NCBI GenBank assembly: GCA_009914755.4
Contig: CP086569.2
Span: forward strand, 1,632,001 to 1,696,000
Length of the DNA stretch: 64,000 nucleotides
Reading direction: 5' to 3'
Origin: the human T2T-CHM13v2.0 reference genome, Homo sapiens
Shown here: positions 4,577 through 63,584 of the stretch, piece after piece
Layout: the number at the start of each line of letters is the position of its first letter
Position numbering within the stretch: the first letter of the stretch is position 1
Position numbers and translations under genes: made by a program
The notes under the pieces: model-generated
Database searches by the model: none
What the model was told of the DNA's origin: nothing
The model's input: the letters and a program-made list of their open reading frames with translations, nothing else

Positions 4577-4639
4577 AAGTGCCTTTTTTCATATAATGAC
4601 TTCTTTTCCACTGTGTAGATACTCAGTTCTGAGATTGCT

Positions 4640-5085
4640 GGATCAAATTGTTGATCTACTTTTAGTTCTTCAAGGAACCTCCATACCTGGATCAAATGGT
4701 AGTTCTATTATTAGTTCTTCAAGGAGTCTCCATACCTGGATCAAATGGTAGTTCTAGTATTAGTTCTTTAAGGAGTCTCCATACCTGAATCCAATGGTAG
4801 TTCTACTATTAGTTCTTTAAGGAGTCTCCATACCTGGATCAAATGGTAGTTCTATTATTAGTTCTTTCAGGAATCTCCATACCTGGATCAAATGGTAGTT
4901 CTAGTTTTAGTTCTTCAAGGAGTCTCCATACCTGGATCAAATGGTGGTTCTATTATTAATTCTTCAAGGAATCTCCATACCTGGATCAAATGGTGGTTCT
5001 ATTATTAGTTCTTTAAGGAGTCTCCATACCGGGAACAAATGGTAGTTCTAGTATTAGTTCTTTAAGGAATCTCCGCAGTGGTTTC
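4640..5085. repeat. Internal tandem array of a 49-bp unit x9 inside L1 ORF2 3' region
   Basis: Unit CTGGATCAAATGGTAGTTCTATTATTAGTTCTTCAAGGAGTCTCCATAC starts at about 4640, 4688, 4736, 4787, 4834, 4884, 4933, 4982 and 5031. The L1 consensus carries it once. Confidence 0.85.
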
Positions 5086-14307: not shown

Positions 14308-15085
14308 CACACTGATGGTTATCACAAGTGGCCTGGGAGGTGTTCTGTTGGCCCCAGGGGTTCACTGACCATCATCACAGGTGGCCTGTGATGTGTTGAC
14401 TTGGTGGGGCCCACTGACCACCATTGCTGGTGGCCTTAGAGGTGATCTGTTGACCCCAGGGGCTCACTGGTGACCACTGCCGGTAGCCTGGGAGGTGGTC
14501 TGTTGACCTTGGGGACTCATTGATGACCATTACAGGTGGCCTGGGAGATGGTCTGTTGACCCTGGGGAGTCACTGATGACCATTTCAAGTGGTCTGTTGA
14601 CCTTGGGGGCTCACTGACGGCCATTGCAGGTTGTCTGGGAGGTGGTGTGTTGACCTTGTGGGCTCACTGATGGCCATTGCTGGTGGCCTTGGCGATGATG
14701 GTCTGTTGACCCCAGGGGCTCACTGGTGACCACTGCAGGTGGGCTGGGAAGTGGTCTGTTGACCTGGGGACTCACTGACCACCATTGCTGGTGGCCTTGG
14801 AGATGGTTTGTTGACCTTGGGGACTCACCACCATTGCAGGTGACTTGGAGATGGTTTGTTGACCTTGGGGACTCACTGACCACCACTGCAGGTGACTTGG
14901 GAGATGGTTTGTTGACCCTGGGGACTCACTGGTGACCATTACAGGTGGGCTGGGAAGTGGTCTCTTGACCTGGGGACTCACTGACCACCACTGTTGGTGG
15001 CCTTGGAGATGGTTTGTTGACCCCAGGGGCTCACTGATGACCATTGCAGGTGGCCTGGGGGATGGCCTATTGACTGGGCACATCC
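14308..15085. repeat. Minisatellite of ~53-bp unit x15
   Basis: CACTGA(C/T)(C/G)ACCA(T/C)TGC(A/T)GGTGGCCTGGGAGATGGTCTGTTGACC(T/C)TGGGGACT is repeated with 41-56-bp variants. The repetitive ORFs at 14611-15120 are artefacts. Confidence 0.9.
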
Positions 15086-20289: not shown

Positions 20290-21101
20290 ATGGAATATAG
20301 AGGTGATTGAAGGTATCTGGAAAGATATGCGTGGGCAATATGCAAATATTACACCATTTTATATAAGGGACATCCATGAATTTTACTAGCATCTGCTGAG
20401 TGTCCTGACATCAATCCTCCACAGATAACAAGGGATGACTGTATATAGATGACTTAGAGATACAGAAAGATATATAGAGAGATAGGGCGATACAGAGATG
20501 AAAGATTGATTGATGATAGATACCTGGATGGATAGATAGGAGATAGATAAATACATAGATACATAGATAGACGACAGATAGATACATAGATAGATAGATA
20601 CATACATAGATAGATGATAGAAAGATAGATGATAGATGGTAGATAGATAGATAATAGATAGATAAGTAAATAGATAGTAGACAGAAGATAGACAGTAGAC
20701 AAGTAGCTGGTAGGTACATAGTAGAAAAGTGGTAGATAGATAGATAGAAGACAAGTCGCTGGTAGGTAAGTAGACAGACAGTAGACAGGTAGCTGTGTAG
20801 ACAGATGATAGATAGATAGATAAGATAGATAGAAACATAGATGATAGGAGACAGGTACATAGATATCTGGATGAATAGATAGGAGATAGATGACAGATAG
20901 ATAGATAGATGATAGATGGTAGATAGATAGATAATAGATAAGTAAATAGGTAGATAGTAAACAGAGATAGAAGATAGATAGTAGACAAGTAGCTGGTAGG
21001 TAGATAGGTAGATAGAAAAGTAACTGGTAGATAGATAGAAGACAAGTAGCTGGTAGGTAGGTAGATAGAAAGACAGTAGACAGGTAGCTGTGTAGACAGA
21101 T

Positions 21102-21147
<46 letters not shown>

Positions 21148-21260
21148 CAAAGATAGATAGTAGATAGATAGTAGATAGAAAGATAGATAGATGGATAGTA
21201 GATAGATAGATAGAGATAGATGATAGATAGGAGACAGGTACATAGATTGATGTCGTGTTG
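20290..21260. repeat. Left arm of a large inverted repeat: ~160 bp unique flank plus ~800 bp (GATA)n/(GATG)n tetranucleotide array
   Basis: Flank ..GAAGGTATCTGGAAAGATATGCGTGGGCAATATGCAAATATTACACCATTTT..CATCCATGAATTTTACTA..CACAGATAACAAGGGATGACTGTATATAGATGACTTAGAGATACAGAAA, then gatagatagatag.. The ORFs 20386-21490 (300-360 aa, S/I/Y/L-rich) are artefacts. Confidence 0.85.
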
Positions 21261-21934: not shown

Positions 21935-22610
21935 AGTCTATCTACTTATCTATTTATCTATGTATCTATCTATCTACTATCTATGTATCTATCTATCTAC
22001 TATCTATCTATATCTATGTATCTATTATCTATCTATATCTATGTATCTATGTATTATCTATCTATATCTATCTATGTATCTATCTCTATCTACCTATCTA
22101 TCATCTATGTATCTATTTATCTATCTAGCTATCTATGTGTGTATCTAGTATCTATCTATCTAGCTATGTATCTATGTATTATGTATCTATCTTCTATCTA
22201 TATCTATCTATCTATGTATCTATCTATCTCTATCTATCATCTATGTATCTCTCTATCTAGCTATCTATGTATCTAGTATCTATCTATCTGGCTATCTATG
22301 TATGTATCTATGTATTATCTATCTTCTATCTATCCATCCATATATCTATCATCAGTCAATCAATCCTTTCATCGCTGTATCGCTCTATCCAGGTATCTTA
22401 TCTATTTATTTTTCTCTTTCTATATTTCTGTATCTCTAACTCATCTATATACAGTCATCCCTTGTTATCTGTGAGGGATTGGTTCCAGGACACACGACAG
22501 ATAATAGTAAAATTCATGGATGTGGCTGATAGAAAATGGTGTAGTATTTGCATATTAGCTATGCACATCCTTCCAAATACCTTCAATTGCCTCTATATTA
22601 CTTATAATAC
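21935..22610. repeat. Right arm of the inverted repeat: (TATC)n array (~410 bp) plus inverted copy of the unique flank
   Basis: ctatctacttatctatttatctatgtatc... The reverse complement of 22440-22600 matches 20300-20455 (CACAGATAACAAGGGATGACTGTATATAGATGA, ATATGCAAATA(C/T)TACACCATTTT, TGAAGGTAT(C/T)TGGAA). Confidence 0.85.
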
Positions 22611-27654: not shown

Positions 27655-28673
27655 ATATTCTCTCTCTGTCTTTCATCTGTCACTATTGTTACTATTCTAT
27701 CTGTTCATCTATCTATTAATATCTACATATCTTCTATATATCATCTATTATCTAACATCTACCTATATCTATATATCATGTATTATCACGTATCTATCCA
27801 TTGTCTATTTCTGTCATTTATCATTCTGTGTATTGATCATCTTTTTTTCTATCATCTATGTAACTCATCTATCATCTGTCATGTCTATCATCTATCTATT
27901 TTTCTATCATCTGTGCATTGATCGATCTAGCATCTATTATCCCTCTCTATCATCTATTGATCTATCTACATATCTATCCGTCTACCTACTTAGCATCTAT
28001 CTGTCATCTATTGGTCTTTCTACATATCTACCTACCTACCTACCTACTCAGCATCTATGTATCTGTGTATCCATCTATCATCTATTGATCTTCCTACATA
28101 TCTACTTACCTACCTACTCAGCATCTATGTATCTATCTATCATCTATTGATCTCTCTACATATCTACCTACTAACCTACTCAGCGTCTATGTATCTATGT
28201 ATCTATCTATCATCTATTGATCTCTCTACATATCTACCTACCTACCTACTCAGCGTCTATGTATCTTTGTATCTAGCTATCATCTATTGATCTATCTACA
28301 CATCTATCTACCTACTTAGCATCTATCATCTATTGACCTATCTATATATCTATCTACCTACCTACTCAGCATCTATTATCTATCATCTATCTATCATCTA
28401 TCTAATCTATCTATTGTCTATTGATCTATCTACACATCTATCTACCTACCTAGTTAGCATCTATCATCTGTTATCTATCTACATATGTGTCTACCTATCT
28501 ACTTAGCATCTATCTATCATCTATTGATCTATCTATATATCTATCTATCTACCTACTTAGCATCTATCTCTGTATCATCTATTGATCTATCTACATATCT
28601 ACCTACCTATCTACTTAGCATCTATCTATCACCTATTGGTCTATCTACATGTCTATATACCTACCTCCTTAGC

Positions 28674-28720
<47 letters not shown>

Positions 28721-28905
28721 ATCTATTGATCCATCTACTTGTCTATATACCTACCTCCTTAGCATCTATCTAATCTATCATCTGTCTATCTATCTATCTA
28801 TCCAGCTATCTCTCATCTATTTACCTAAGTATTCTCTCTCTCTCTCTCTCTCACTCTTGCTCTCTCCCCCTTGCTCTCTCCCTACTACCTATCTATTATA
28901 TATCT
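27655..28905. repeat. ATCT/TATC-derived degenerate array with ~60-70-bp higher-order units (contains pure (TATC)12 at ~28670 and (CT)n at ~28827)
   Basis: The unit ..CTCAGCATCTATGTATCTATCTATCATCTATTGATCT(C/T)TCTACATATCTACCTACCTACCTACT.. recurs at about 28049, 28118, 28179 and 28248. Confidence 0.85.
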
Positions 28906-29635: not shown

Positions 29636-29639
29636 GACT

Positions 29640-30545
29640 ATCATCTATCTATCATCTCTATTTATCTATCACCTCTATCTATCTATCGTCTATCCCTCAT
29701 CTCCATCTATCTATTATCTATCGACCTATCATCAATCTATCATCTATTATCTATCTATGTATCTATCTATCCTTTCCATCTATCATGTCTATTTATCTAA
29801 CCTGTCTATTATCTATGTATCTCTCACCTCCATCTATTATCTATCGATCTATCATCTATCATCTATGTATCTCTCATCTCCATCTATTATCTATTATCTA
29901 TTGATCTATCATCGATCATGTGTTATCTGCCTATCTATCATCTATTATCTGTCTCTCATCTCCATCTATTATCTATCGATTTATCATTTATCTATCATCT
30001 ATTATGTGTCTATCTATCCTTTCCATCTATCATCTCTATTTATCTATCCTATCTATGTACCTCTCATCTCCATCTATTATCTATCGATCTATCATCCGTC
30101 TATCATCTATGTATCTCTCATCTCCATCTATTATCTATCGATCTATCATCTATCTATGATCTATGTATCTCTTATCTCCATCTGTCTATTATCTATCTAT
30201 TGCCTATTGATCCATCATTATCTGCCTATCTATCATCTATTATGTATGTATCACTCATCTCCATCTATTTTCTATAGATCTATCATGTATCTATCATCTA
30301 TTATGTATCTATCTATTATCTATGTATCTCTTATCTCCATCTATTATCTATTTTCTATAGATCTATCATCTATCTATCATCTATTATGTACGTATCTCTC
30401 ATCTCCATCTATTATCTATAGATCTATCATGTATCTATCTTCTATTATCTATCTATCTATCTATCTATCCTTTCCATCTGTCTATCATCTATTATCTATC
30501 TATCTATCTATCTACCCTTTCCATCTATCCATCATCTATCATTTA
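29640..30545. repeat. ATCT-derived minisatellite with ~50-63-bp higher-order unit x~15
   Basis: CTCTCA(T/C)CTCCATCTATTATCTATCGATCTATCATCTATCATCTATGTAT is repeated. The ORFs 29588-30590 (277 aa etc.) are artefacts. Confidence 0.85.
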
Positions 30546-42901: not shown

Positions 42902-43392
42902 CAAATCTTTCAAGCCGGCTGTCAGCAGGCATCCGTGTCAGGTCCACCTGTCCGTCCAGCTCCAAGCTGATTGTCAGCCACTGCACAGGCTGAAAAAAAT
43001 GGACTTTAATATCTGTGAAAACCTCGTTGGCTCAAAGGAAACTGTAGCAAATTCTTTTTTTTTATTTTTGTTTTTTAACTCAAAGAGTGGAGTTTGCATT
43101 GACCTTGTGATGGCACGCTGCTCTTTTGTTTTGGTGTAAATCCTCTAGTGGGCACTTTGCAAAAGCAATTTTAGAGCAAAGGTGGTGGCATGGAGTTGTG
43201 TGAGGTTGCTGAAAAGTAGCAAATGGAAGAAAGGTTAATGGAGCTGGATTTCTACAAAGGACGTCCTTTGAGGAGATCCACAGCAGCAACAATCACAGAG
43301 CAGCTTGCGTTTCCTATTCTGGGGACTTGGAGCACTTGATTGTAAGGAAGAAAGTGTGAGTGGGCACAAGGCTGGTGGTCACAATAAAAAGA

Positions 43393-46300
43393 ACAACAGT
43401 AATAATATGATACTACCACTGCATGAGAGCAGTAATAACAACAACAGTAATACAATACCACCGCCGTGTGAGAGCAGTAATAACTACAACAGTAATACGA
43501 TACCACCGCTGCATGAGAGCAGTCATAATCACAACAGTAATATGATACTACCGCCGCATGAGAGCAACAACAGTAATATGATACTACTGCCGCATGAGAG
43601 CAGTAATAACAACAGTAATATGATACTACCACTACATGAGAGCAGTCATAATCACAACAGTAACATGACACCACCGCCGCATCAGAGCAGTAATAACAAC
43701 AACAGTAATATGATACTACCGCCGCATGAGAGCAGTAATAACAACACTAATATGATACTACCACTACATGAGAGCAGTCATAATCACAACAGTAACATGA
43801 CACCACCGCCGCATGAGCAGTAATAACAACAACAGTAATATGATACTACCGCCGCATGAGAGCAGTAATCACAACAGTAATATGATACTACCGCTGCATG
43901 AGAGCAGTAATAACAGTAATATGATACTACCGCCGCATGAGAGCAGTAATAACAGTAATATGATACTACCGCCGCATGAGAGCAGTAATAACAACAGTAA
44001 TATGATACTACCGCCGCATGAGAGCAGTCATAATCACAACAGTAATATGATACTACCGCCGCATGGGAGCAGTAATAACAACAACAGTAATATGATACTA
44101 CCGCCGCATGAGAGCAGTAATAACAACAGTAATATGATACTACCGCTGCATGAGAGCAGTAATAACAGTAATATGATACTACCGCCGCATGAGAGCAGTA
44201 ATAACAACAGTAATATGATACTACCACTACATGAGAGCAGTCATAATCACAACAGTAATATGATACTACCACTACATGAGAGCAGTCATAATCACAACAG
44301 TAATATGATACTACCACTACATGAGAGCAGTCATAATCACAACAGTAATATGATACTACCGCCGCATGGGAGCAGTAATCACAACAGTAATATGATACTA
44401 CCGTTGCATGAGAGCAGTAATAACAACAACAGTAATATGATACTACCGCCACATGAGAGCAGTAATCACAACAGTAATATGATACTACCGCCGCATGAGA
44501 GCAGTCATAATCACAACAGTAATATGATACTACCGCCACATGAGAGCAGTAATAACAACAGTAATATGATACTACCACTACATGAGAGCAGTCATAATCA
44601 CAACAGTAATATGATACTACCACTACATGAGAGCAGTCATAATCACAACAGTAATATGATACTACCACTACATGAGAGCAGTCATAATCACAACAGTAAT
44701 ATGATACTACCGCTGCATGAGAGCAGTAATAACAACAGTAATATGATACTACCGCCGCATGAGAGCAACAACAGTAATATGATACTACTGCCGCATGAGA
44801 GCAGTAATAACAACAGTAATATGATACTACCGCCGCATGAGAGCAGTAATAACAACAGTAATATGATACTACCACTACATGAGAGCAGTCATAATCACAA
44901 CAGTAATATGATACTACCGCCGCATGAGAGCAGTAATCACAACAGTAATATGATACTACCGCTGCATGAGAGCAGTAATAACAGTAATATGATACTACCG
45001 CCACATGAGAGCAGTAATAACAGTAATATGATACTACCGCCGCATGAGAGCAGTAATAACAACAGTAATATGATACTACCGCCGCATGAGAGCAGTCATA
45101 ATCACAACAGTAATATGATACTACCACTACATGAGAGCAGTCATAATCACAACAGTAATATGATACTACCGCTGCATGAGAGCAGTAATAACAACAGTAA
45201 TATGATACTACCGCCGCATGAGAGCAGTAATAACAGTAATATGATACTACCGCCGCATGAGAGCAGTCATAACAGTAATATGATACTACCGCCGCATGAG
45301 AGCAGTAATAACAACAGTAATATGATACTACCGCTGCATGAGAGCAGTAATAACAACAGTAATATGATACTACCACTACATGAGAGCAGTCATAATCACA
45401 ACAGTAATATGATACTACCGCCGCATGGGAGCAGTAATCACAACAGTAATATGATACTACCGTTGCATGAGAGCAGTAATAACAACAACAGTAATATGAT
45501 ACTACCGCCGCATGAGAGCAGTCATAATCACAACAGTAATATGATACTACCGCCGCATGAGAGCAGTCATAATCACAACAGTAATATGATACTACCGCCA
45601 CATGAGAGCAGTAATAACAACAGTAATATGATACTACCACTACATGAGAGCAGTCATAATCACAACAGTAATATGATACTACCACTACATGAGAGCAGTC
45701 ATAATCACAACAGTAATATGATACTACCACTACATGAGAGCAGTCATAATCACAACAGTAATATGATACTACCGCTGCATGAGAGCAGTAATAACAACAG
45801 TAATATGATACTACCGCCACATGAGAGCAGTAATAATCACAACAGTAATATGATACTACCGCCGCATGAGAGCAGTAATCACAACAGTAATATGATACTA
45901 CCGCCACATGAGAGCAGTAATAACAGTAATATGATACTACCGCCACATGAGAGCAGTAATCACAACAGTAATATGATACTACCACTACATGAGAGCAGTC
46001 ATAATCACAACAGTAATATGATACTACCGCTGCATGAGAGCAGTAATAACAACAGTAATATGATACTACCGCCACATGAGAGCAGTAATAATCACAACAG
46101 TAATATGATACTACCACTACATGAGAGCAGTCATAATCACAACAGTAATATGATACTACCGCCACATGAGAGCAGTAATAACAACAGTAATATGATACTA
46201 CCGCCGCATGAGAGCAGTAATAACAGTAATATGATACTACCGCCACATGAGAGCAGTAATAACAGTAATATGATACTACCGCCACATGAGAGCAGTAATC

Positions 46301-47310
46301 ACAACAGTAATATGATACTACCACTACATGAGAGCAGTCATAATCACAACAGTAATATGATACTACCGCCGCATGAGCAGTAATAACAGTAATATGATAC
46401 TACCGCCGCATGAGAGCAGTAATAACAACAGTAATATGATACTACCACTACATGAGAGCAGTAATAATCACAACAGTAACATGACACCACCGCCACATGA
46501 GAGCAGTAATAACAACAGCAATATACTACCGCCGCATGAGAGCAGTAATAACAACAGTAGTATGATACTACCACTACATGAGAGCAGTCATAATCACAAC
46601 AGTAATATGATACTACCGCCGCATGAGAGCAGTAATAACAGTAATATGATACTACCGCCGCATGAGAGCAGTAATAACAGTAATATGATACTACCGCCGC
46701 ATGAGAGCAGTAATAACAAGAGTAATATGATACCACCACCGCATGAGAGCAGTAATAACAACAGTAATATGATACCACCGCCACATGAGAGCAGTAATAA
46801 CAACAGTAATATGATACTACCACTACATGAGAGCAGTCATAATCACAACAGTAATATGATACTACCACTACATGAGAGCAGTCATAATCACAACAGTAAT
46901 ATGATACTACCGCCGCATGAGAGCAGTAATAACAGTAATATGATACTACCGCCACATGAGAGCAGTCATAATCACAACAGTAATATGATACTACCGCCGC
47001 ATGAGAGCAGTAATCACAACAGTAATATGATACTACCGCCACATGAGAGCAGTCATAATCACAACAGTAATATGATACTACCACTACATGAGAGCAGTCA
47101 TAATCACAACAGTAATATGATACTACCACTACATGAGAGCAGTAATAACAACAGTAATATGATACTACCGCCACATGAGAGCAGTCATAATCACAACAGT
47201 AATATGATACTACCGCTGCATGAGAGCAGTAATAACAAGAGTAATATGATACCACCGCCACATGAGAGCAGTAATAACAACAGTAATATGATACTACCAC
47301 CGCAGGAGAG
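43393..47310. repeat. Large minisatellite/VNTR of about 90-95 copies of a 39/42/45-bp unit with two unit subtypes
   Basis: Subtype P is AGCAGTAATAAC(AAC)0-2AGTAATATGATACTACCGCCGCATGAG (39, 42 or 45 bp). Subtype L is AGCAGTCATAATCACAACAGTAATATGATACTACCACTACATGAG (45 bp). The ORFs 43813..46383(+) of 856 aa and 43784..46324(-) of 846 aa are non-stop frames of the unit. Confidence 0.95.
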
Positions 47311-47345
47311 CAGTAGTAGGAGTAATAATAAAGTTAACAGCAGCA

Positions 47346-48074
<729 letters not shown>

Positions 48075-48254: not shown

Positions 48255-48735
48255 GGCTTAACCAACAGACATTGATTCTCCCACAGTCCTGGAGGCTGCA
48301 AGTCTGAGATCCAGGTGTGGGCAGGGCTGGTTCCTCCTGAGGCCTCTCTCCTTGGCTTGGAGACACTGTCTTCTCCCTGCAGCCTCACAGGGTCATCCCT
48401 CTGTGTGTGTCTGTGTCCTCACCTCCTCTTCTTATGAGATGCCTTAGTCCATTTCAGGCTGCTAACACAGAATACCATAGACTGGGTGACTTATAAACAA
48501 CAGACATTGATTCTCCCACAGTCCTGGAGGCTGGAAGTCTGAGATCCAGGTATGGGCAGGGCTGGTTCCTCCTGAGGCCTCTCTCCTGGGCTTGTAGACG
48601 CCGTCTTCTCCCTGTGCCCTCACAGGGTCATCCCTCTGTGTGTGTCTGTGTCCTCACCTCTTCTTCTTATGAGATGCCTTAGTCCATTTCAGGCTGCTAA
48701 CACAGAATACCATAGACTGGGTGACTTATGAGCAA
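48255..48735 (-). mobile_element. Two tandem ~240-bp copies of a MaLR-type LTR 3' part (antisense)
   Basis: CCATAGACTGGGTGACTTATAAACAACAGACATTGATTCTCCCACAGTCCTGGAGGCTGGAAGTCTGAGATCCAGGT..GGGCAGGGCTGGTTCCTCCTGAGGCCTCTCTCC...CTCACAGGGTCATCCCTCTGTGTGTGTCTGTGTCCTCACCTC appears twice. It is the reverse complement of the ..CCAGAACTGTGAG..AAGCCACCCAGTCTATGGTATT.. tail family. Confidence 0.6.
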
Positions 48736-49539
48736 CAGACATTGATTCTCCCACAGTCAAGACAGGGGAAGACCATGGAGAGGAGGGTCATGTATCTGTA
48801 ACTCTTGAACATTTTATTCCAGGATCAAGTAAACGTGCCAATATTTGGGTTAGCTTTCTGCTTTTTCTCCGGCAAAACACGACAATTTACACTGCATTGA
48901 ATTTAAGGATGGTTGCTTTCTCCTTGACATGCCAACAGAACAAACAGGGTCTCCGATTCTGAAATGACTCCAGATTTGGGAGACAAAGTTGTGTCAGCCA
49001 ATTTCTACAGATGCTGTCTGTAGACTCTGCTTGTGCCTGCATTTGGCTTTACAGATTCAGGCTGTGTTTCTGGAGCCGCCTCGCACGTTCTCCTCTATTG
49101 AGATTATAAAATTATCAAAAGCTTGAAGGTAAATGCTCTCTGTTGACTCAACACGATTACAACTTTGTGTGTGTGTGTTTGCTGCAGTGCAGCGCACAAG
49201 TTTTATAGGACAACCTGAGCCTTCATTTCTTCAGTTTGACATTCTGAGTTTAAGACAAAGGGAATGATCACCCCGCCGTGTTCTTGGTAAAGGAAGAGTG
49301 TTAGAGCATCATGGCAGTATTCTTCCAGCCTCCAGGAAGAGAAGCTTTTAAAATGACAATTTCTGATTTGACATTTTCACTTGTAACACCCTAGAGGTAT
49401 AGGCAGGTCTTGCATCTGCAAAAGGTTATTGCTGTGGAGAATTGGGAGCTGTGGTAAATGAAGTGTGACCGCCTTGCCCACAGTAAGGCAGGGAAGACAA
49501 GAGAATGTAAAAAATGTGAATACCTTGAGGAAGACAGTG

Positions 49540-50130: not shown

Positions 50131-50559
50131 CTCACCAGATGATGTTCCAAGTTGTTTAGCTGCAATAGTGACTGGCTTAATGCATTAGTTTGCCCCCCTT
50201 TTTCCTTATTATTTTGTTATCCCAAAAAACCTTTCCTACAGGGGCTAAGAATATATGGGAAATTCCAATATACCATTTCTGGGGAAACCCAAGCAAATAA
50301 CAGACAGGGGTTATGGCCACACCGTGCTTTCTGGATATTTGTACTATTACGAGTGGAAATGTGTCCTATGCCAAATTCATAGATTGACGTCCTAAATCTC
50401 AGTTCCTCAGACTGTGATCTTGTTTGGAAGTACATCATTGCAGATGTAATTAATTAGTTCTGTTAGGATGAGGTCAGGCTGGAGTCAAATGGGCCCCTAA
50501 TCTAATATAAATGTTGTCTTCATCCATTTGAGCATCTATCACGAGATGTCATAAATTGG

Positions 50560-50700
50560 GTTGGTTTGAAATAACGGGAGTTTATCACTCACAGCTCTGT
50601 TGGCTAGAATTTCAAGATCAAAGGGTGGAAGATTCAGTGTGTGGGAACGGCTTCCTGGTTCACAGACGGTGCCTTCTCACTATGCCCTTACATGGTACCG
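50560..50700 (-). mobile_element. MaLR-type LTR portion (antisense) leading directly into the 59-bp array
   Basis: GGCTTCCTGGTTCACAGACGGTGCCTTCTCACTATGCCCTTACATGGTA.. matches the MaLR antisense ..CTTCCTGGTTCATAGACGGCGCCTTCTCGCTGTGTCCTCACATGGTGGAAG. Confidence 0.55.
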
Positions 50701-53700
50701 CCTCCGCCAACAGGGAACAGATTTCAGCATGAGACCCAAACACCTCCACCCAGTCCCACCTCCATCACTGGGAACCAGATTTCAGCATGAGACCCAAACC
50801 CCTCACCCAGCCCCACCTCCATCACTGGGAACAAGATTTCAGCATGAGACCAAACACCCTCACACAGACTCACCTCCAACAATGGGGACCAGATTTCAGC
50901 ACGAGACCAAACACCCTCACCGAGCCCCACCTCCAACACTAGGGACCAGATTTCAACATGAGAAACAAACACCTCCATCCAGCCTCACCACTAATACGGG
51001 GGACCAGATTTCAGCATGAGACCCAAACACCCTCACCCAGCCCCACCTCCCACACTGGGAACAAGATTCCAGCATGAGACCAAACACCCTCACACAGACT
51101 CACCTCCAACAATGGGGACCAGATTTCAGCAATAGACCCAAACACCCTCACCCAGCCCCACCTCCAAACTGGGGACCAGATTTCAGCATGAGACCCAAAC
51201 ACACTCACGCAGCCCCAACTCCAACACTGGGGACCAGATTTCAGCATGAGACACACACACCTCCACCCGGCCTCACCCCCAACACTGGAGACCAGATTTC
51301 AGCATGAGACCCAAACACCCTCATCCAGACCCACCTCCAACAATGGGGACCAGATTACAGCATGAGACCCAAACACTTCCACCCAGCCCCACCGCCAACA
51401 CTGGGGACCAGATTTCAGCAGGAGACCCAAACACCCTCATCCAGACCCAACTCCAACATTGGTGACCAGATTTCAGCATCAGAACCAAACACCCTCACCC
51501 AGCCCCACCCCTAACACTGGGGACAAGATTTCAGCATGAGACCCAAACAACTCTATCCAGCCTCACCACCAACACTGGGGACCAGATTTCAGCATGACGC
51601 CTAAACACCCTCACACAGACCCACCTCCAACACTGGAGACAGATTTCAGCATGACATGCAAACATCTCGACCCAGCCCCACCTCCAACACTGGGAACCAG
51701 ATTTCAGAATGAGACCCAAACACTTCCACCCAGCCCCACCTCCAACATTGGGGAGCAGATTTCAGAATGAGACCCAAACACCTCCACCTGGCCTCACCTC
51801 CAACTTCAGGGACCAGATTTCAGCATAAGACACAAACACCTCCACCCAGACCCACATCAAACACTGGGAACAAGATATCAGCATGAGACCCAAACACGTC
51901 CACCCAGCCCCACCTCCAACAATGGGGACCAGATTTAAGCATGAGGCGAAAACACCCTCACCCAGACCCACCTCCAACACTGGGGACCAGATTTCCGCAT
52001 GGCACCCAAACACGCTCATCCAGACCCACCTCCAACATCGGTGAAAAGATTTCAGCATGAGACCCAAACACGCTCACCCAGCCCCACCCCTAACACTGGG
52101 AACAAGATATCAGCATGAGACCCAAACACCCTCACCCAGCCCCACCTCCAACAATGGGGACCAGATTTCAGCATGAGACCCAAACACCTCCACCTGGCCT
52201 CATCCCCAACACTGGGGACCAGATTTCAACATGAGACGCAAACACCTCCACCTGGCCTCACCTCCAACTTCAGGGACCAGATTACAGCATGAGACCCAAA
52301 CACCTCCACCCAGACCTACCTACAACACTGGGAAACAGATTTCTGCCTGAGACCCAGACACCTCCATCCAGCTTCACCACCAGCACTGGGGACCAGATTT
52401 CAGCATGAGACCCAAACACCCTCAGCCAGCCCCACCTCCAACACTGCGGACGAGATTTCAGCATGAGACCCAAACATCCTCACCCAGCCCCACCCCTAAC
52501 ACTTGGGACCAGATTTCAGCATGAGACCCAAACACCCTCACCCAGCACCCCCTCCAACACTGGGGATGAGATTTCAGCATGAGACCCAAACACCCTCACA
52601 GAGCCCCACCCCTAACGCTGGGGACCAGTTTTCAGCATGAGACCCAAACACCTCCATCCAGCCTCACCACCAACACTGGGGACCAGATTTCAGCATGAGG
52701 CCCAAATACCCTCACCCAGACCCACCTCCAACACTGGGGACGAGATTTCAGCATGAGGCCCAAACACCCTCACGCAGACCCACCTCCAAAACTGGGGACC
52801 AGATTTCAGCATGAGACCCAAACACCTCCACCCAGCCTCAACACCAATACTGGAGACCAGATTTCAACATGAGACCCAAACACCTCCACCCGGCCTCAAC
52901 ACCAATACTGGAGACCAGATTTCAACATGAGACCCAAACACCTCCACCCAGCCTCACATCCAATACTGGAGACCAGATTTCAGCATGAAGCCCAAACACC
53001 CTCACCCAGCCCCATCTCCAATAATGGGTACCGGATTTCATCATGAGACCCAAACGCTTCAACCCAGCCCCAACTGCAACACTGGGGAACAGATTTCAGC
53101 ATGAGACACAAACACCCTCCCCAAGACCCACCTCAAACACTGGGGACCAGATTTCAGCATGAGACCCAAACACCTTCACCCAGCACCACCCCTAACACTG
53201 GGGACCAGATTTCAGCATGAGACCCAAACACCTTCACCCAGCACCACCCCTAACACTGGGGGCCAGATTTCAGCATGAGACCCAAACACCCTCACCCAGC
53301 CCCACCTCCAACACTGGGGACAAGATTTCAGCATGAGACCCAAACACCCTCACCCAGCCCCACCCCTAACACTTGGGGACCAGATTTCAGCATGAGACCC
53401 AAACACCTCCATCCAGCCTCACCTCACCTGGGACCAGATTTCAGCATGAGACCCGAACACCTCCATCCAGCTTCACCACCAACACTGGGGACCAGATTTC
53501 AGCATGAGGCCCAAATACCCTCACCCAGACCCACCTCCAACACTGGGGACCGGATTTCAGCATGAGACCCAAACACCTCCATCCAGCCTCACCACCAACA
53601 CTGGGGACCAGATTTTAGCATGAGACCCAAACACCCTCACCCAGCCCCACCCCTAACACTTGGGACCAGATTTCAGCATGAGACCCGAACACCCTCACCC

Positions 53701-54335
53701 AGCACCCCCTCCAACATTGGTGACCAGATTTCAGCATGAGACCCAAACACCCGCACCCAGCCCCACCCCTAACACTGGGGACCAGAATTCAGCATGAGAC
53801 CCAAACACCTCCATCCAGACTCACCTCCAACTTTGGGGACCAGATTTCATCATGAGATCCAAACACCTCCATCCGACTGGCCTCACCTCCAACAGTTGGG
53901 GCCAGATTTCAGCATGAGACCCAAACACCTCCATCCGGCCGGCCTCACCTCCAACATTGGGGACCAGATTTCAGCGTGAGACCCAGACACCCTCACCCAG
54001 CACCCCCCCAACACTGGGGACCAGATTTCAGCATGAGAGCGAAACACCTCCATCCAGCCTCACCACCAATACTGGGGACCAGATTTCTGCATGAGACTCA
54101 AACACCTCCATGCAGCCGGCTTCACCTCCAACACTGGGGCGAGATTTCAGCATGATACCCAAACACTTCCACCTGGCCTCACCTCCAACACTGGGGCGAG
54201 ATTTCAGCATGATACCCAAACACTTCCACCTGGCCTCACCTGTAACAGTGGAGACCAGATTTCAGCATGATTCCCAAACACCTCCACCTGGCCTCACCTC
54301 CAACATCAGGGATCAGATTTCAGCATGAGATTTGG
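50690..54335. repeat. Satellite-like tandem array of a ~59-bp unit x~62 (3.6 kb), with the unit derived from the terminal ~60 nt of a MaLR LTR
   Basis: Unit CCAGATTTCAGCATGAGACCCAAACACC(C/T)TCACCCAGCCCCACCTCCAACACTGGGGA has a period of 59 bp (for example 50772->50831). Perfectly identical adjacent units occur at 53160-53280 and 54130-54230. The ORFs 50600-54328 are artefacts. Confidence 0.9.
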
Positions 54336-62730: not shown

Positions 62731-63584
62731 TAGAAAAGCTCCAGAAACCTTGGGTGATGAAATCCAAAGTCATCAGCCTCTTGGAGATGTAAATTTGATC
62801 AAACGGAGGGAAATGTAGTGTGTCTGGTATACGTATCAAGTGCTGAGGGTCGGTCATCTGAAGTCCGCTCTTACCAGGCTAAAAGTTAGGTGTGGGAGAG
62901 TCTATTAGTTCTTCACAATTCTTCTTCCTCTCTAACTGGTCTCTGGCTCATGCCCCACGGGAGAAGCACGCCTCCTGCCCCCACTAACTTTGGACTGCCA
63001 TCTGATTTGTTTTTGCTTATAGAATGTTGGTCAGTGCTGTTGCGGTAAACTGAGGAACGGAGAGACCAATACGGAGTACAGGAGGATTTGTTTATTTTTA
63101 GGTACACACTGGCTCAGCAGAATCGCGTTTAAAAAGCTCAGCATTGAACAAAGACGGAGCGGGGGTTTCATAAGCGGCCTTATAACATAACTCGTGACCT
63201 TGCATAGCTGGTGGCCTTGTAGCTGCATTGAAAGAAAAACAAGAACTGGCTAAATACAGACATTTGTAAAACATAGTCATGCTTAAGAAGCCTGGGAAAA
63301 GAGTAACAGTAAAATAATCTGTCTTTCTCTTTTTTCCTTCAACCTTGCTCTGGAAGGCGGGTGGGGTGTCTGGAGCCCATTCCTTTGGCCTTGGCTACTG
63401 TGACAGTGTTACTTTATAACTATCCTTGAAGTGAGCTGGTAGGCAGAGGAAAACTTGTTCTTTTCTCTCTTTTTTTTTTTTTAACCCTTGCCTTGCCACA
63501 TTCTGGGCCTTAGCTTTGACTTTTCTTGGAGTGAATAAATGCAGGACTTATTATTTTTTAAATTTCTGCCTCAGTGGAGGCACA

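What the first reader, a model, noticed from the sequence alone, without database searches (positions are those of the whole stretch)
43393..47310. 3.9-kb minisatellite of 39/42/45-bp units with two interleaved unit subtypes and strictly triplet-quantized length variation
About 90-95 head-to-tail units span 43393-47310. Units come in two families. P units are AGCAGTAATAAC(AAC)nAGTAATATGATACTACCGCCGCATGAG. L units are AGCAGTCATAATCACAACAGTAATATGATACTACCACTACATGAG. L units occur in runs of three (for example ~44221-44345, ~44580-44700, ~45640-45760), embedded in similar P-unit contexts. That is a higher-order periodicity, which implies repeated unequal exchange of multi-unit blocks.

All length variants differ by multiples of 3, because they arise from AAC-triplet slippage or from a 12-mer swap. 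This is why one + frame and two - frames stay open across the whole array, giving the 856-aa and 846-aa track ORFs. With 3 of 6 frames open for a 42-mer, the open frames are about what chance predicts. Both strands are open at once and the 'protein' is a pure 14-residue reiteration, so I regard it as a non-coding VNTR.

Arrays of this length and purity are usually hypervariable between individuals. I do not recognise the unit as a named human satellite.
Basis: seen in the sequence. Interest (0 to 1): 0.7.

Follow-up and report, generated by a model that had tools for sequence, protein, structure and literature searches.

The report
Ordinary non-coding 42-bp minisatellite array
This is a real 3.9-kb tandem array of about 92 copies of a ~42-bp unit in Alu-rich primate (almost certainly human) DNA, and every test run here says it is an ordinary non-coding minisatellite (VNTR), not a gene or a new kind of element.

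Summary
The array is real and lies where stated: TRF 43403-47315, 91.8 copies, 91 full units plus a partial first one, and chance expectation 0. Three details of the description are wrong.

(1) Length variation is not strictly in triplets. Two units are 43 bp (a 2-bp GA deletion). As a result no reading frame is open across the whole array; all six have at least 32 stops.

(2) There are not two unit families. Two variable modules give 34 distinct units.

(3) There is no regular higher-order periodicity. The signal comes from irregular intra-array block duplications, chiefly one recent ~474-bp block repeated ~1.06 kb away at ~99.4% identity.

The non-coding interpretation is supported:
- Three open frames of six is chance level.
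- + frame substitution types are 16 non-synonymous to 4 synonymous.
- No protein among 1.84 billion representatives, and no Pfam family, matches.
- The main variants are CpG transitions.
- The triplet steps come from a degenerate (ANN)9 tract inside the unit.

I could not test locus identity or copy-number polymorphism with these tools. Interest is low.

The parts
43393..47315 (+). Minisatellite array of 91 full units plus a partial first unit. Consensus unit: AGCAGTAATAACAACAGTAATATGATACTACCGCCGCATGAG (42 bp; length classes 36/39/42/43/45). GC is 39% and the + strand is 41% A.
   Evidence: TRF; segmentation; core pattern matched 87 times against 0 expected; composition.
43393..43860 (+). Degenerate 5' edge of the array. 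The first ~10 units carry 2.4 rare substitutions per 33-nt core, against 0.15-0.3 in the interior.
43774..43816 (+). First 43-bp unit (2-bp GA deletion). It ends the 172-aa + ORF and shifts the open frame.
46334..46376 (+). Second 43-bp unit (2-bp GA deletion). It ends the 856-aa + ORF.
44294..44767 (+). First copy of the recent intra-array block duplication (about 11 units; unit code ANOHDIAAAE...).
   Evidence: Lags of 1059 and 1062 bp; 2 mismatches plus one 3-bp indel over about 474 bp.
45353..45829 (+). Second copy of the block duplication (unit code ANODDIAAAE...).
46430..47315 (+). Degenerate 3' part of the array. The last 21 units carry 1.05 rare substitutions per core and many singleton units.
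47282..47660 (+). Copy 1 of an old 382-bp tandem duplication: last array unit, a 37-bp AGT/AGC-rich spacer, and an Alu (47339-47640).
   Evidence: TRF period 382 x 1.9 copies, 85% matches; in-register alignment.
47664..48014 (+). Copy 2 of the 382-bp duplication: relic unit (47664-47696), spacer, and an Alu (47721-48014). It shares Alu variants GTCATCC and GAGTCCGAGG with copy 1; these look non-consensus from my memory of the Alu consensus.

Best explanation
This is a single-locus, non-coding minisatellite (VNTR) in Alu-rich primate DNA, almost certainly human. I infer no sequence-specific function; the structure records how the array grew and turned over. Steps marked 'shown' rest on tool results, and the rest are inferred.

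(a) Shown: the unit is a ~42-bp sequence whose first 27 bp are a degenerate (ANN)9 trinucleotide tract (AGC AGT AAT AAC AAC AGT AAT ATG ATA).

(b) Inferred: slippage or misalignment inside that tract adds and removes AAC/AAT/CAT triplets. This produces the 36/39/42/45-bp length classes without any selection on a reading frame. Shown: two independent-looking 2-bp losses in the GAGAG run were tolerated.

(c) Shown: the main base variants are transitions at the unit's two CpGs (CCGCCG to CCGCCA, CCGCTG and CCACTA). Inferred: they arose by deamination of methylated CpG in the germ line and were then spread to many units.

(d) Inferred from the pattern shown: the array grows and is homogenised by out-of-register exchange (unequal sister-chromatid or homologue exchange, gene conversion, or replication slippage). 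The pattern is a homogeneous interior, degenerate edges, 19 exact copies of one 45-mer, and a 474-bp block duplicated 1.06 kb away at about 99.4% identity.

(e) Shown: the progenitor sequence is old. A relic unit plus an Alu at the 3' edge were duplicated together as a 382-bp module whose copies are now about 15% diverged. Inferred: the bulk of the array is much younger, because its CpG observed/expected ratio is 0.70 against 0.30 in the rest of the window.
For: - Array and units.
- Cryptic triplet tract: lag-3 self-match of 23 of 42 positions against 6-14 at other lags, and A at codon phase 1 in 9 of 14 triplets.
- All common indels fall in alignment columns 38-43, inside that tract.
- CpG transitions dominate: column 18 G>A x25, column 20 C>T x35, column 21 G>A x40. 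Only 34 of 91 units keep both CpGs.
- Edge versus interior divergence is 2.4 and 1.05 against 0.15-0.3 rare substitutions per unit.
- Block duplication: (0 of 1000 shuffles).
- Old duplication of relic unit plus Alu.
- Non-coding: frames broken; open-frame count at chance; 16 non-synonymous to 4 synonymous substitution types in the + frame; no homologue; no Pfam family; no Pfam-detectable exon in 199 unmasked ORFs of the window.
- Size is within the known VNTR range: mean unit 40 bp and total length 65-14,168 bp in 467 human VNTRs, most of them intronic or intergenic, with allele differences driven by internal duplications and deletions (PMC8327921).
Against: - No population, transcript or methylation data could be consulted. 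Copy-number variability, germ-line methylation and lack of expression are therefore inferred, not shown.
- The locus (chromosome and gene) was not identified.
- Whether the unit belongs to a dispersed repeat or a transposable-element family could not be tested, because no TE library was available.
- In - frame 2, 10 of 20 substitution types are synonymous, which is somewhat high. That frame also gains stops through 2 variant types, three frames were tested, and 17 of the 20 types are transitions, so I read this as noise.
Confidence: 0.88

Rival explanations
1. It is a coding VNTR: the array is an exon (or part of one) encoding a 14-residue repeat (SSNNNSNMILPPHE on the + strand, or one of the two - strand readings), like mucin-type repeat exons.
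For: 89 of 91 units have lengths divisible by 3. The ORFs are long, at 856 aa (+) and 846 aa (-).
Against: - Two 43-bp units break every frame, so no frame spans the array.
- Three open frames of six is chance level.
- + frame substitution types are 16 non-synonymous to 4 synonymous, and the commonest variants change Pro to Leu and Asn to His.
- No similar protein exists in 5.8 billion clusters or 1.84 billion representatives. The best hits are unrelated repeat proteins with a ~14-residue period.
- No Pfam family matches.
- The - strand readings are implausible Leu- or Cys/Tyr-rich reiterations.
- The triplet steps are explained by the internal (ANN)9 tract.
- An Alu starts 24 bp past the array's end.
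Confidence: 0.02
2. It is one copy of a dispersed repeat family, either a satellite or the internal minisatellite of a transposable element, and not a unique-locus VNTR.
For: Many minisatellites arise inside transposable elements (general knowledge). The neighbouring 58-bp VNTR at 50713-54330 looks TE-derived (my recollection of MaLR LTR sequence, untested). The window is about 45% repeats by my crude mask.
Against: The unit occurs nowhere else in the 64-kb window except as a relic at the array's own edge. I saw no SVA-type hallmarks, such as a hexamer repeat or SINE-R, when reading the flanks. No paper contains the unit sequence. A genome-wide check was not possible with these tools.
Confidence: 0.07
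3. It is a functional cis-regulatory or chromatin VNTR. In this reading the array, probably intronic or intergenic, tunes expression or splicing of a nearby gene according to its length. This can hold together with the main explanation.
For: Non-coding VNTRs of this size are reported to affect expression and disease risk, for example ABCA7, WDR7 and CACNA1C (as cited in PMC12855859, and PMC8327921). The array retains about 150 CpGs, judging from an observed/expected ratio of 0.70 against 0.30 in the flanks.
Against: - There is no CpG island in the window.
- No Rfam family matches anywhere in the window.
- Neither strand folds better than shuffled controls, with z from -0.3 to +2.1.
- No PRDM9 13-mer or Jeffreys core lies in the array.
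- The relatively high CpG content is equally well explained by the array being young.
Confidence: 0.08
4. It is an assembly artefact, i.e. a mis-assembled or mis-sized repeat.
For: Long VNTRs are hard to assemble (general knowledge).
Against: The internal structure is orderly and biologically typical. It has degenerate edges, a homogenised interior, structured variants, and unique junctions on both sides that include the old unit-plus-Alu duplication. The artefactual patterns I would expect, such as long perfectly identical stretches or abrupt junctions, are not present.
Confidence: 0.02

Closest known systems
Non-coding human VNTRs / minisatellites as catalogued from long-read assemblies (e.g. 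the intronic and intergenic VNTRs of Course et al. 2021, PMC8327921; the TRF-based catalogue of PMC12855859)
   Same: - A head-to-tail array with a unit of about 40 bp, matching the mean unit of 40.1 bp in that set.
- A total length of 3.9 kb, inside the reported 65-14,168 bp range.
- Many internal motif variants.
- Structure shaped by internal duplications and deletions 'anywhere in the repeat'.
- A non-coding location.
   Different: At 3.9 kb it lies in the upper tail of that set, whose mean is 1.2 kb. Membership in any published list could not be checked, because no motif tables were held as text. Whether the expansion is human-specific is unknown.
Classical hypervariable GC-rich minisatellites (Jeffreys-type, e.g. 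MS32 and CEB1; named from my own knowledge)
   Same: A tandem array of 10-100-bp units with interspersed variant repeats (MVR-like structure) and evidence of out-of-register exchange.
   Different: This array is AT-rich (39% GC) and its strand bias is A-rich, not G-rich. It has no Jeffreys core and no PRDM9-type 13-mer. Nothing in its sequence ties it to a recombination hotspot.
PROP1-type 'STR within a VNTR' (Course et al. 2021, PMC8327921, section 11)
   Same: Unit-length variation comes from a short-period tract nested inside each unit. There it is a TG stretch; here it is a degenerate (ANN)n / (AAC)n triplet tract.
   Different: The nested tract here is a trinucleotide and varies by only 1-3 triplets. 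That is why the unit lengths look 'codon-quantized'.
Coding VNTRs (MUC1 60 bp, MUC4 48 bp and others; PMC8327921, PMC12855859)
   Same: The unit length is a multiple of 3, and one sense frame is open per unit.
   Different: Frameshifting units are present, no frame spans the array, there is no protein homologue and there is no synonymous bias.
AT-rich fragile-site minisatellites (FRA10B ~42 bp, FRA16B 33 bp; from my own knowledge)
   Same: A similar unit length of about 42 bp, and relatively AT-rich.
   Different: Those units are far more AT-rich and form hairpins. This unit is 61% AT, and neither strand folds better than shuffled controls.

Membership tests
Minisatellite / VNTR | Head-to-tail tandem array of units of at least 7 bp (typically 10-100 bp) | tested here: met
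   TRF reports 91.8 copies and a 42-nt consensus. I segmented 91 units.
Minisatellite / VNTR | Interspersed variant repeat units within the array | tested here: met
   There are 34 distinct unit sequences; the variant columns are listed.
Minisatellite / VNTR | Copy number varies between individuals | not testable with these tools
   No second haplotype could be retrieved. The only indirect sign of recent turnover is a block duplication at about 99.4% identity.
Minisatellite / VNTR | Single locus with unique flanks (not a dispersed family) | tested here: inconclusive
   The unit is found only here within the 64-kb window. The genome-wide copy number was not testable.
Classical GC-rich hypervariable minisatellite (Jeffreys type) | GC-rich unit with G-rich/C-rich strand asymmetry | tested here: not met
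   GC is 39%. The + strand is A 41%, C 22%, G 17%, T 20%.
Classical GC-rich hypervariable minisatellite (Jeffreys type) | Shared core (GGGCAGGANG) or PRDM9-type motif (CCNCCNTNNCCNC) in the unit | tested here: not met
   Neither motif occurs in the array.
Coding VNTR (mucin-type exon repeat) | All unit lengths are multiples of 3, and one frame is open through the whole array | tested here: not met
   Two units are 43 bp. Every frame has at least 32 stops across the array.
Coding VNTR (mucin-type exon repeat) | The encoded repeat is present in known or predicted proteins, or in a protein family | tested here: not met
   Searches found none.
Coding VNTR (mucin-type exon repeat) | Excess of synonymous over non-synonymous differences between units | tested here: not met
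   The + frame has 16 non-synonymous and 4 synonymous substitution types.
Coding VNTR (mucin-type exon repeat) | Transcript or peptide evidence | not testable with these tools
   No expression data were available.
Satellite with higher-order repeats | Regular multi-unit periodicity along the array | tested here: not met
   Unit-lag autocorrelation has isolated peaks only at lags 6 and 25-26. The lag-25 peak traces to one duplicated block.
AT-rich hairpin-forming fragile-site minisatellite (FRA10B/FRA16B type) | Very AT-rich unit with strong single-strand secondary structure | tested here: not met
   The unit is 61% AT. DNA folding z-scores are +2.1, +1.35, +1.47 and -0.32 against shuffles.
TE-embedded VNTR (e.g. 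SVA) | The array lies inside a recognisable transposable element | not testable with these tools
   No TE library was available. Reading the flanks showed no SVA hallmarks. Alus abut the 3' end but do not enclose the array.

The most novel reading that the evidence does not exclude
The array could be a lineage-specific (ape- or human-specific), recently expanded and highly length-polymorphic VNTR whose copy number or unit composition modulates a nearby gene, i.e. an unrecognised regulatory VNTR or eQTL. Two observations allow a recent expansion: its CpG content is high relative to the flanks (observed/expected 0.70 against 0.30), and it contains a block duplication at about 99.4% identity. Nothing here shows a regulatory function.
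Probability: 0.08. Interest if true: 0.4.

Novelty: already known. Interest (0 to 1): 0.1.

Why it matters
It matters little as a discovery. Minisatellites of this size and architecture are a well-described class. Current TRF-based catalogues list more than 700,000 human VNTRs (PMC12855859), so an array with a TRF score of 5189 would be captured routinely.

I chose 'already known' on that basis: the kind is known, and the locus is almost surely catalogued. I could not verify the catalogue entry itself, and no paper I could search describes this particular unit.

The useful outcome is a cautionary one. A VNTR can show near-perfect 'codon-quantized' length variation and 850-aa ORFs on both strands for purely mechanical reasons. 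Here the cause is a nested degenerate trinucleotide tract, and open frames occur at chance rates in short tandemly repeated units. If the locus proved to be strongly length-polymorphic, it could serve as a marker or as a candidate regulatory variant for its host gene.

Tried and rejected
1. Literature search for the unit sequence on both strands and for its peptide found 0 papers. A search for a VNTR with 39/42/45-bp units also found 0.
2. Supplement searches of four VNTR catalogue papers for the motif gave nothing: there were no hits, or no supplement text was held. The Sulovari et al. 2019 paper is not held.
3. The word-index protein search of the 856-aa ORF returned nothing. N/S-rich words may have saturated it, so I repeated it exhaustively. 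That gave 104 weak hits. All the top ones I inspected are unrelated ~14-residue-period repeat proteins, and only a single stray LPPHE occurred among the 104.
4. An exact look-up of two array ORFs in public assemblies found neither on record.
5. Scans of metagenome, prokaryote-genome and viral contig collections for the unit core, and of the first two for the left-flank junction, found 0 hits. No second allele was obtained.
6. Locus identification through exons failed. I scanned 199 unmasked stop-to-stop ORFs of at least 55 aa against Pfam and got only two chance-level hits, E about 0.006. Rfam found no family in the window.
7. Structure-driven instability is rejected, because neither strand folds better than shuffles.
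8. A recombination-hotspot or core-motif explanation is rejected.
9. A regular higher-order repeat is rejected.
10. I considered the somewhat high synonymous share in - frame 2 (10 of 20 types) as a hint of coding. I rejected it because two variant types create stops in that frame, three frames were tested, transitions dominate, and the frame is broken by the 43-bp units.
Full report
**Context**

The window is primate genomic DNA, almost certainly human. I found 50 Alu-like intervals covering 23% of it. By eye there are also L1 and LTR fragments. Tandem repeats are numerous. There is no CpG island and no Rfam family. None of 199 unmasked ORFs of at least 55 aa has a credible Pfam domain. I could not identify the chromosome or host gene with the tools available.

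Yes.
- Tandem Repeats Finder reports one array at 43403-47315 with period 45, a 42-nt consensus, 91.8 copies, 88% matches and score 5189.
- My own segmentation gives 91 full units plus a partial first unit at about 43393.
- A 33-nt degenerate core matches 88 times in the window at up to 3 mismatches. Of these, 87 are in the array and one is a relic at 47664-47696. Dinucleotide-preserving shuffles give 0.

**Where the description is wrong or too simple**

*Unit lengths.* They are 36 (x2), 39 (x15), 42 (x33), 43 (x2) and 45 (x39). The two 43-bp units start at 43774 and 46334 and have lost GA from the GAGAG run. Because of them, length variation is not strictly in triplets. The + strand reading splits into three ORFs: 43305-43823, 43813-46383 and 46373-47425. 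Each of the six absolute frames carries 32 to 227 stops over 43393-47310. The 856-aa and 846-aa ORFs are the stretches between the two frameshifts, not whole-array frames.

*Unit types.* The units do not fall into two families.
- The head has five main alleles: GCAGTCATAATCACAAC x30, GCAGTAATAACAAC x23, GCAGTAATAAC x13, GCAGTAATCACAAC x9 and GCAGTAATAACAACAAC x6.
- The tail has four main alleles: CCGCCG x34, CCACTA x23, CCGCCA x17 and CCGCTG x10.
- Together they give 34 distinct units.
- The ACTA tail is linked to the CATAATCAC head of the following unit in 21 of 23 cases (Fisher p = 1.6e-11). It is linked to its own head in only 10 of 23 cases (p = 0.30).
- In the corrected register the commonest unit is a 45-mer present in 19 exact copies.

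*Higher-order structure.* It exists but is not periodic.
- Unit-lag autocorrelation peaks only at lags 6 and 25-26.
- A ten-unit string (ANO[H/D]DIAAAE) occurs twice, and 0 of 1000 shuffles reach this.
- At base level, 44294-44767 matches 45353-45829 with 2 mismatches and one 3-bp indel.
Three such runs arise in 45 of 1000 shuffles.

**Coding or not?**

Per consensus unit, three of six frames are open: SSNNNSNMILPPHE on the + strand, and [14 protein letters not shown] and HAAVVSYYCCYYCS on the - strand. Shuffled 42-mers of the same composition average 2.6 open frames and reach three or more in 54% of trials.

Further evidence against coding:
- In the + frame, the 20 substitution types seen in the constant-length part of the unit split 16 non-synonymous to 4 synonymous.
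- The word-index search of 5.8 billion protein clusters returned nothing.
- N/S-rich words might have saturated that search, so I ran the exhaustive HMMER search of 1.84 billion representatives. It gave 104 hits at E of 0.001 or below, and none at or below 1e-30. The best hits are unrelated proteins with their own 13-14-residue repeats, such as GKMLEEHESGKDQD, SSTNSCLVAVPHA and EMSANYDRILPPGA. None carries the array's motif.
- No Pfam family matches any of the four array ORFs.
- An Alu begins 24 bp after the array's end.

I conclude that the array is non-coding. What remains untested is transcript and peptide evidence.

**Why the length steps are triplets**

The unit's first 27 bp read AGC AGT AAT AAC AAC AGT AAT ATG ATA. 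This is a degenerate (ANN)9 trinucleotide tract.
- Circular self-match at lag 3 is 23 of 42 positions, against 6-14 at lags 1-12 otherwise.
- A occupies phase 1 in 9 of 14 triplets.
- All common indels fall in alignment columns 38-43, within this tract.

Slippage in a nested trinucleotide tract gives triplet steps with no need for frame selection. It resembles the 'STR within a VNTR' described for the PROP1 VNTR (PMC8327921).

**Mutation spectrum and turnover**

- The three most variable columns are the G of the first CpG (G>A x25) and the C and G of the second CpG (C>T x35, G>A x40).
- Only 34 of 91 units keep both CpGs.
- The CpG observed/expected ratio is 1.17 for the consensus, 0.70 for the array and 0.30 for the rest of the window. 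The array is decaying by CpG transitions but is much less decayed than its surroundings, which fits a comparatively recent expansion or continuing homogenisation.
- Rare substitutions per 33-nt core are 2.4 in the first ten units, 0.15-0.3 in the interior and 1.05 in the last 21 units. Degenerate edges with a homogenised interior are what arrays maintained by out-of-register exchange are expected to show.

**The 3' edge**

The last unit, a 37-bp AGT/AGC-rich spacer and an Alu (47282-47660) recur as a relic unit, spacer and Alu (47664-48014).
- The two copies align in register and share Alu variants GTCATCC and GAGTCCGAGG, which look non-consensus from my memory of the Alu consensus.
- TRF reports this as period 382, 1.9 copies and 85% matches.
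- The unit sequence therefore existed before an old duplication that carried an Alu along. The progenitor is much older than the bulk of the array.

**Mechanistic leads rejected**

- Three-unit stretches of either strand fold no better than shuffled controls as single-stranded DNA, with z of +2.1, +1.35, +1.47 and -0.32.
- The PRDM9-type 13-mer has 8 hits in the window, most of them of the CCRCCTTGGCCTC form inside the Alu-like intervals, and none in the array.
- The Jeffreys core occurs once in the window, at 62971.
- With 39% GC and an A-rich + strand, this is not a classical GC-rich hypervariable minisatellite. It is also not an extreme AT-rich hairpin-forming fragile-site repeat.

**Comparison with what is known**

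- In 467 human VNTRs studied by Course et al. (PMC8327921), the mean unit is 40.1 bp and copies range from 2 to 300. Total length ranges from 65 to 14,168 bp with a mean of 1.2 kb.
- In that set, 451 of 467 are intronic or intergenic, and allele differences arise mainly from duplications and deletions anywhere in the repeat.
- A TRF-based long-read catalogue lists 737,641 VNTRs on T2T-CHM13 (PMC12855859).
- The present array is a long but otherwise typical member of this class.
- No paper I could search contains its unit, and no motif tables were available as text.
- I therefore rate the kind as already known and the locus as almost certainly catalogued but, as far as I could see, not individually studied.

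**What could not be done**

No second haplotype or orthologue could be retrieved from the assemblies look-up or from the metagenome, prokaryote-genome and viral collections. Hypervariability, lineage specificity and single-locus status therefore remain untested. The decisive computations are listed under next steps.

**Verdict**

This is a real, correctly located, ordinary non-coding minisatellite. Its claims of strict triplet quantization, whole-array open frames, two unit families and higher-order periodicity need correction. Interest is low.

Noticed in passing
window 50713-54330: A second large VNTR lies here: a 58-bp unit, 62 copies, 82% matches, and a strongly C-rich + strand (GC skew about -0.4). 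The unit length is not a multiple of 3. From memory, the unit and the sequence just upstream (about 50480-50712) resemble the 5' end of a MaLR (THE1/MST-type) LTR, so it may be a TE-derived minisatellite. This was not tested.
   Followed up: no
window 20464-21230 and 21937-22398: Degenerate (AGAT)n and (TCTA)n arrays of 0.4-0.8 kb are reverse complements of each other about 700 bp apart, forming an inverted pair. Further (TCTA)n-type arrays of about 1 kb lie at 27696-28820 and 29638-30540.
   Followed up: no
window 47282-48014: A 382-bp tandem duplication carries a relic minisatellite unit, a 37-bp spacer and a whole Alu. The copies are about 15% diverged and share Alu variants that look non-consensus from my memory of the Alu consensus.
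   Followed up: yes
window 48259-48758: A 235-bp unit is duplicated 2.1 times at 95% identity inside what looks like an LTR-type repeat.
   Followed up: no
window 14324-15074 and 4638-5074: Two more minisatellites are present. One has a 53-bp GC-rich unit (14.5 copies, 73% matches). The other has a 49-bp unit (8.9 copies, 90% matches) that, from memory, resembles L1 3'-region sequence.
   Followed up: no
whole window: Repeat density is very high. There are 50 Alu-like intervals (23% of the window), and with the tandem arrays about 45% is masked by a crude mask. Such VNTR clustering is reported for subtelomeric regions, though mainly for GC-rich VNTRs (PMC7608644). The chromosomal position of this window was not determined.
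   Followed up: partly
window 43371-43378: The octamer GCTGGTGG, identical to the E. coli Chi sequence, lies 15 bp left of the array. An 8-mer is expected about twice by chance in 64 kb counting both strands, so it is probably coincidence.
   Followed up: no
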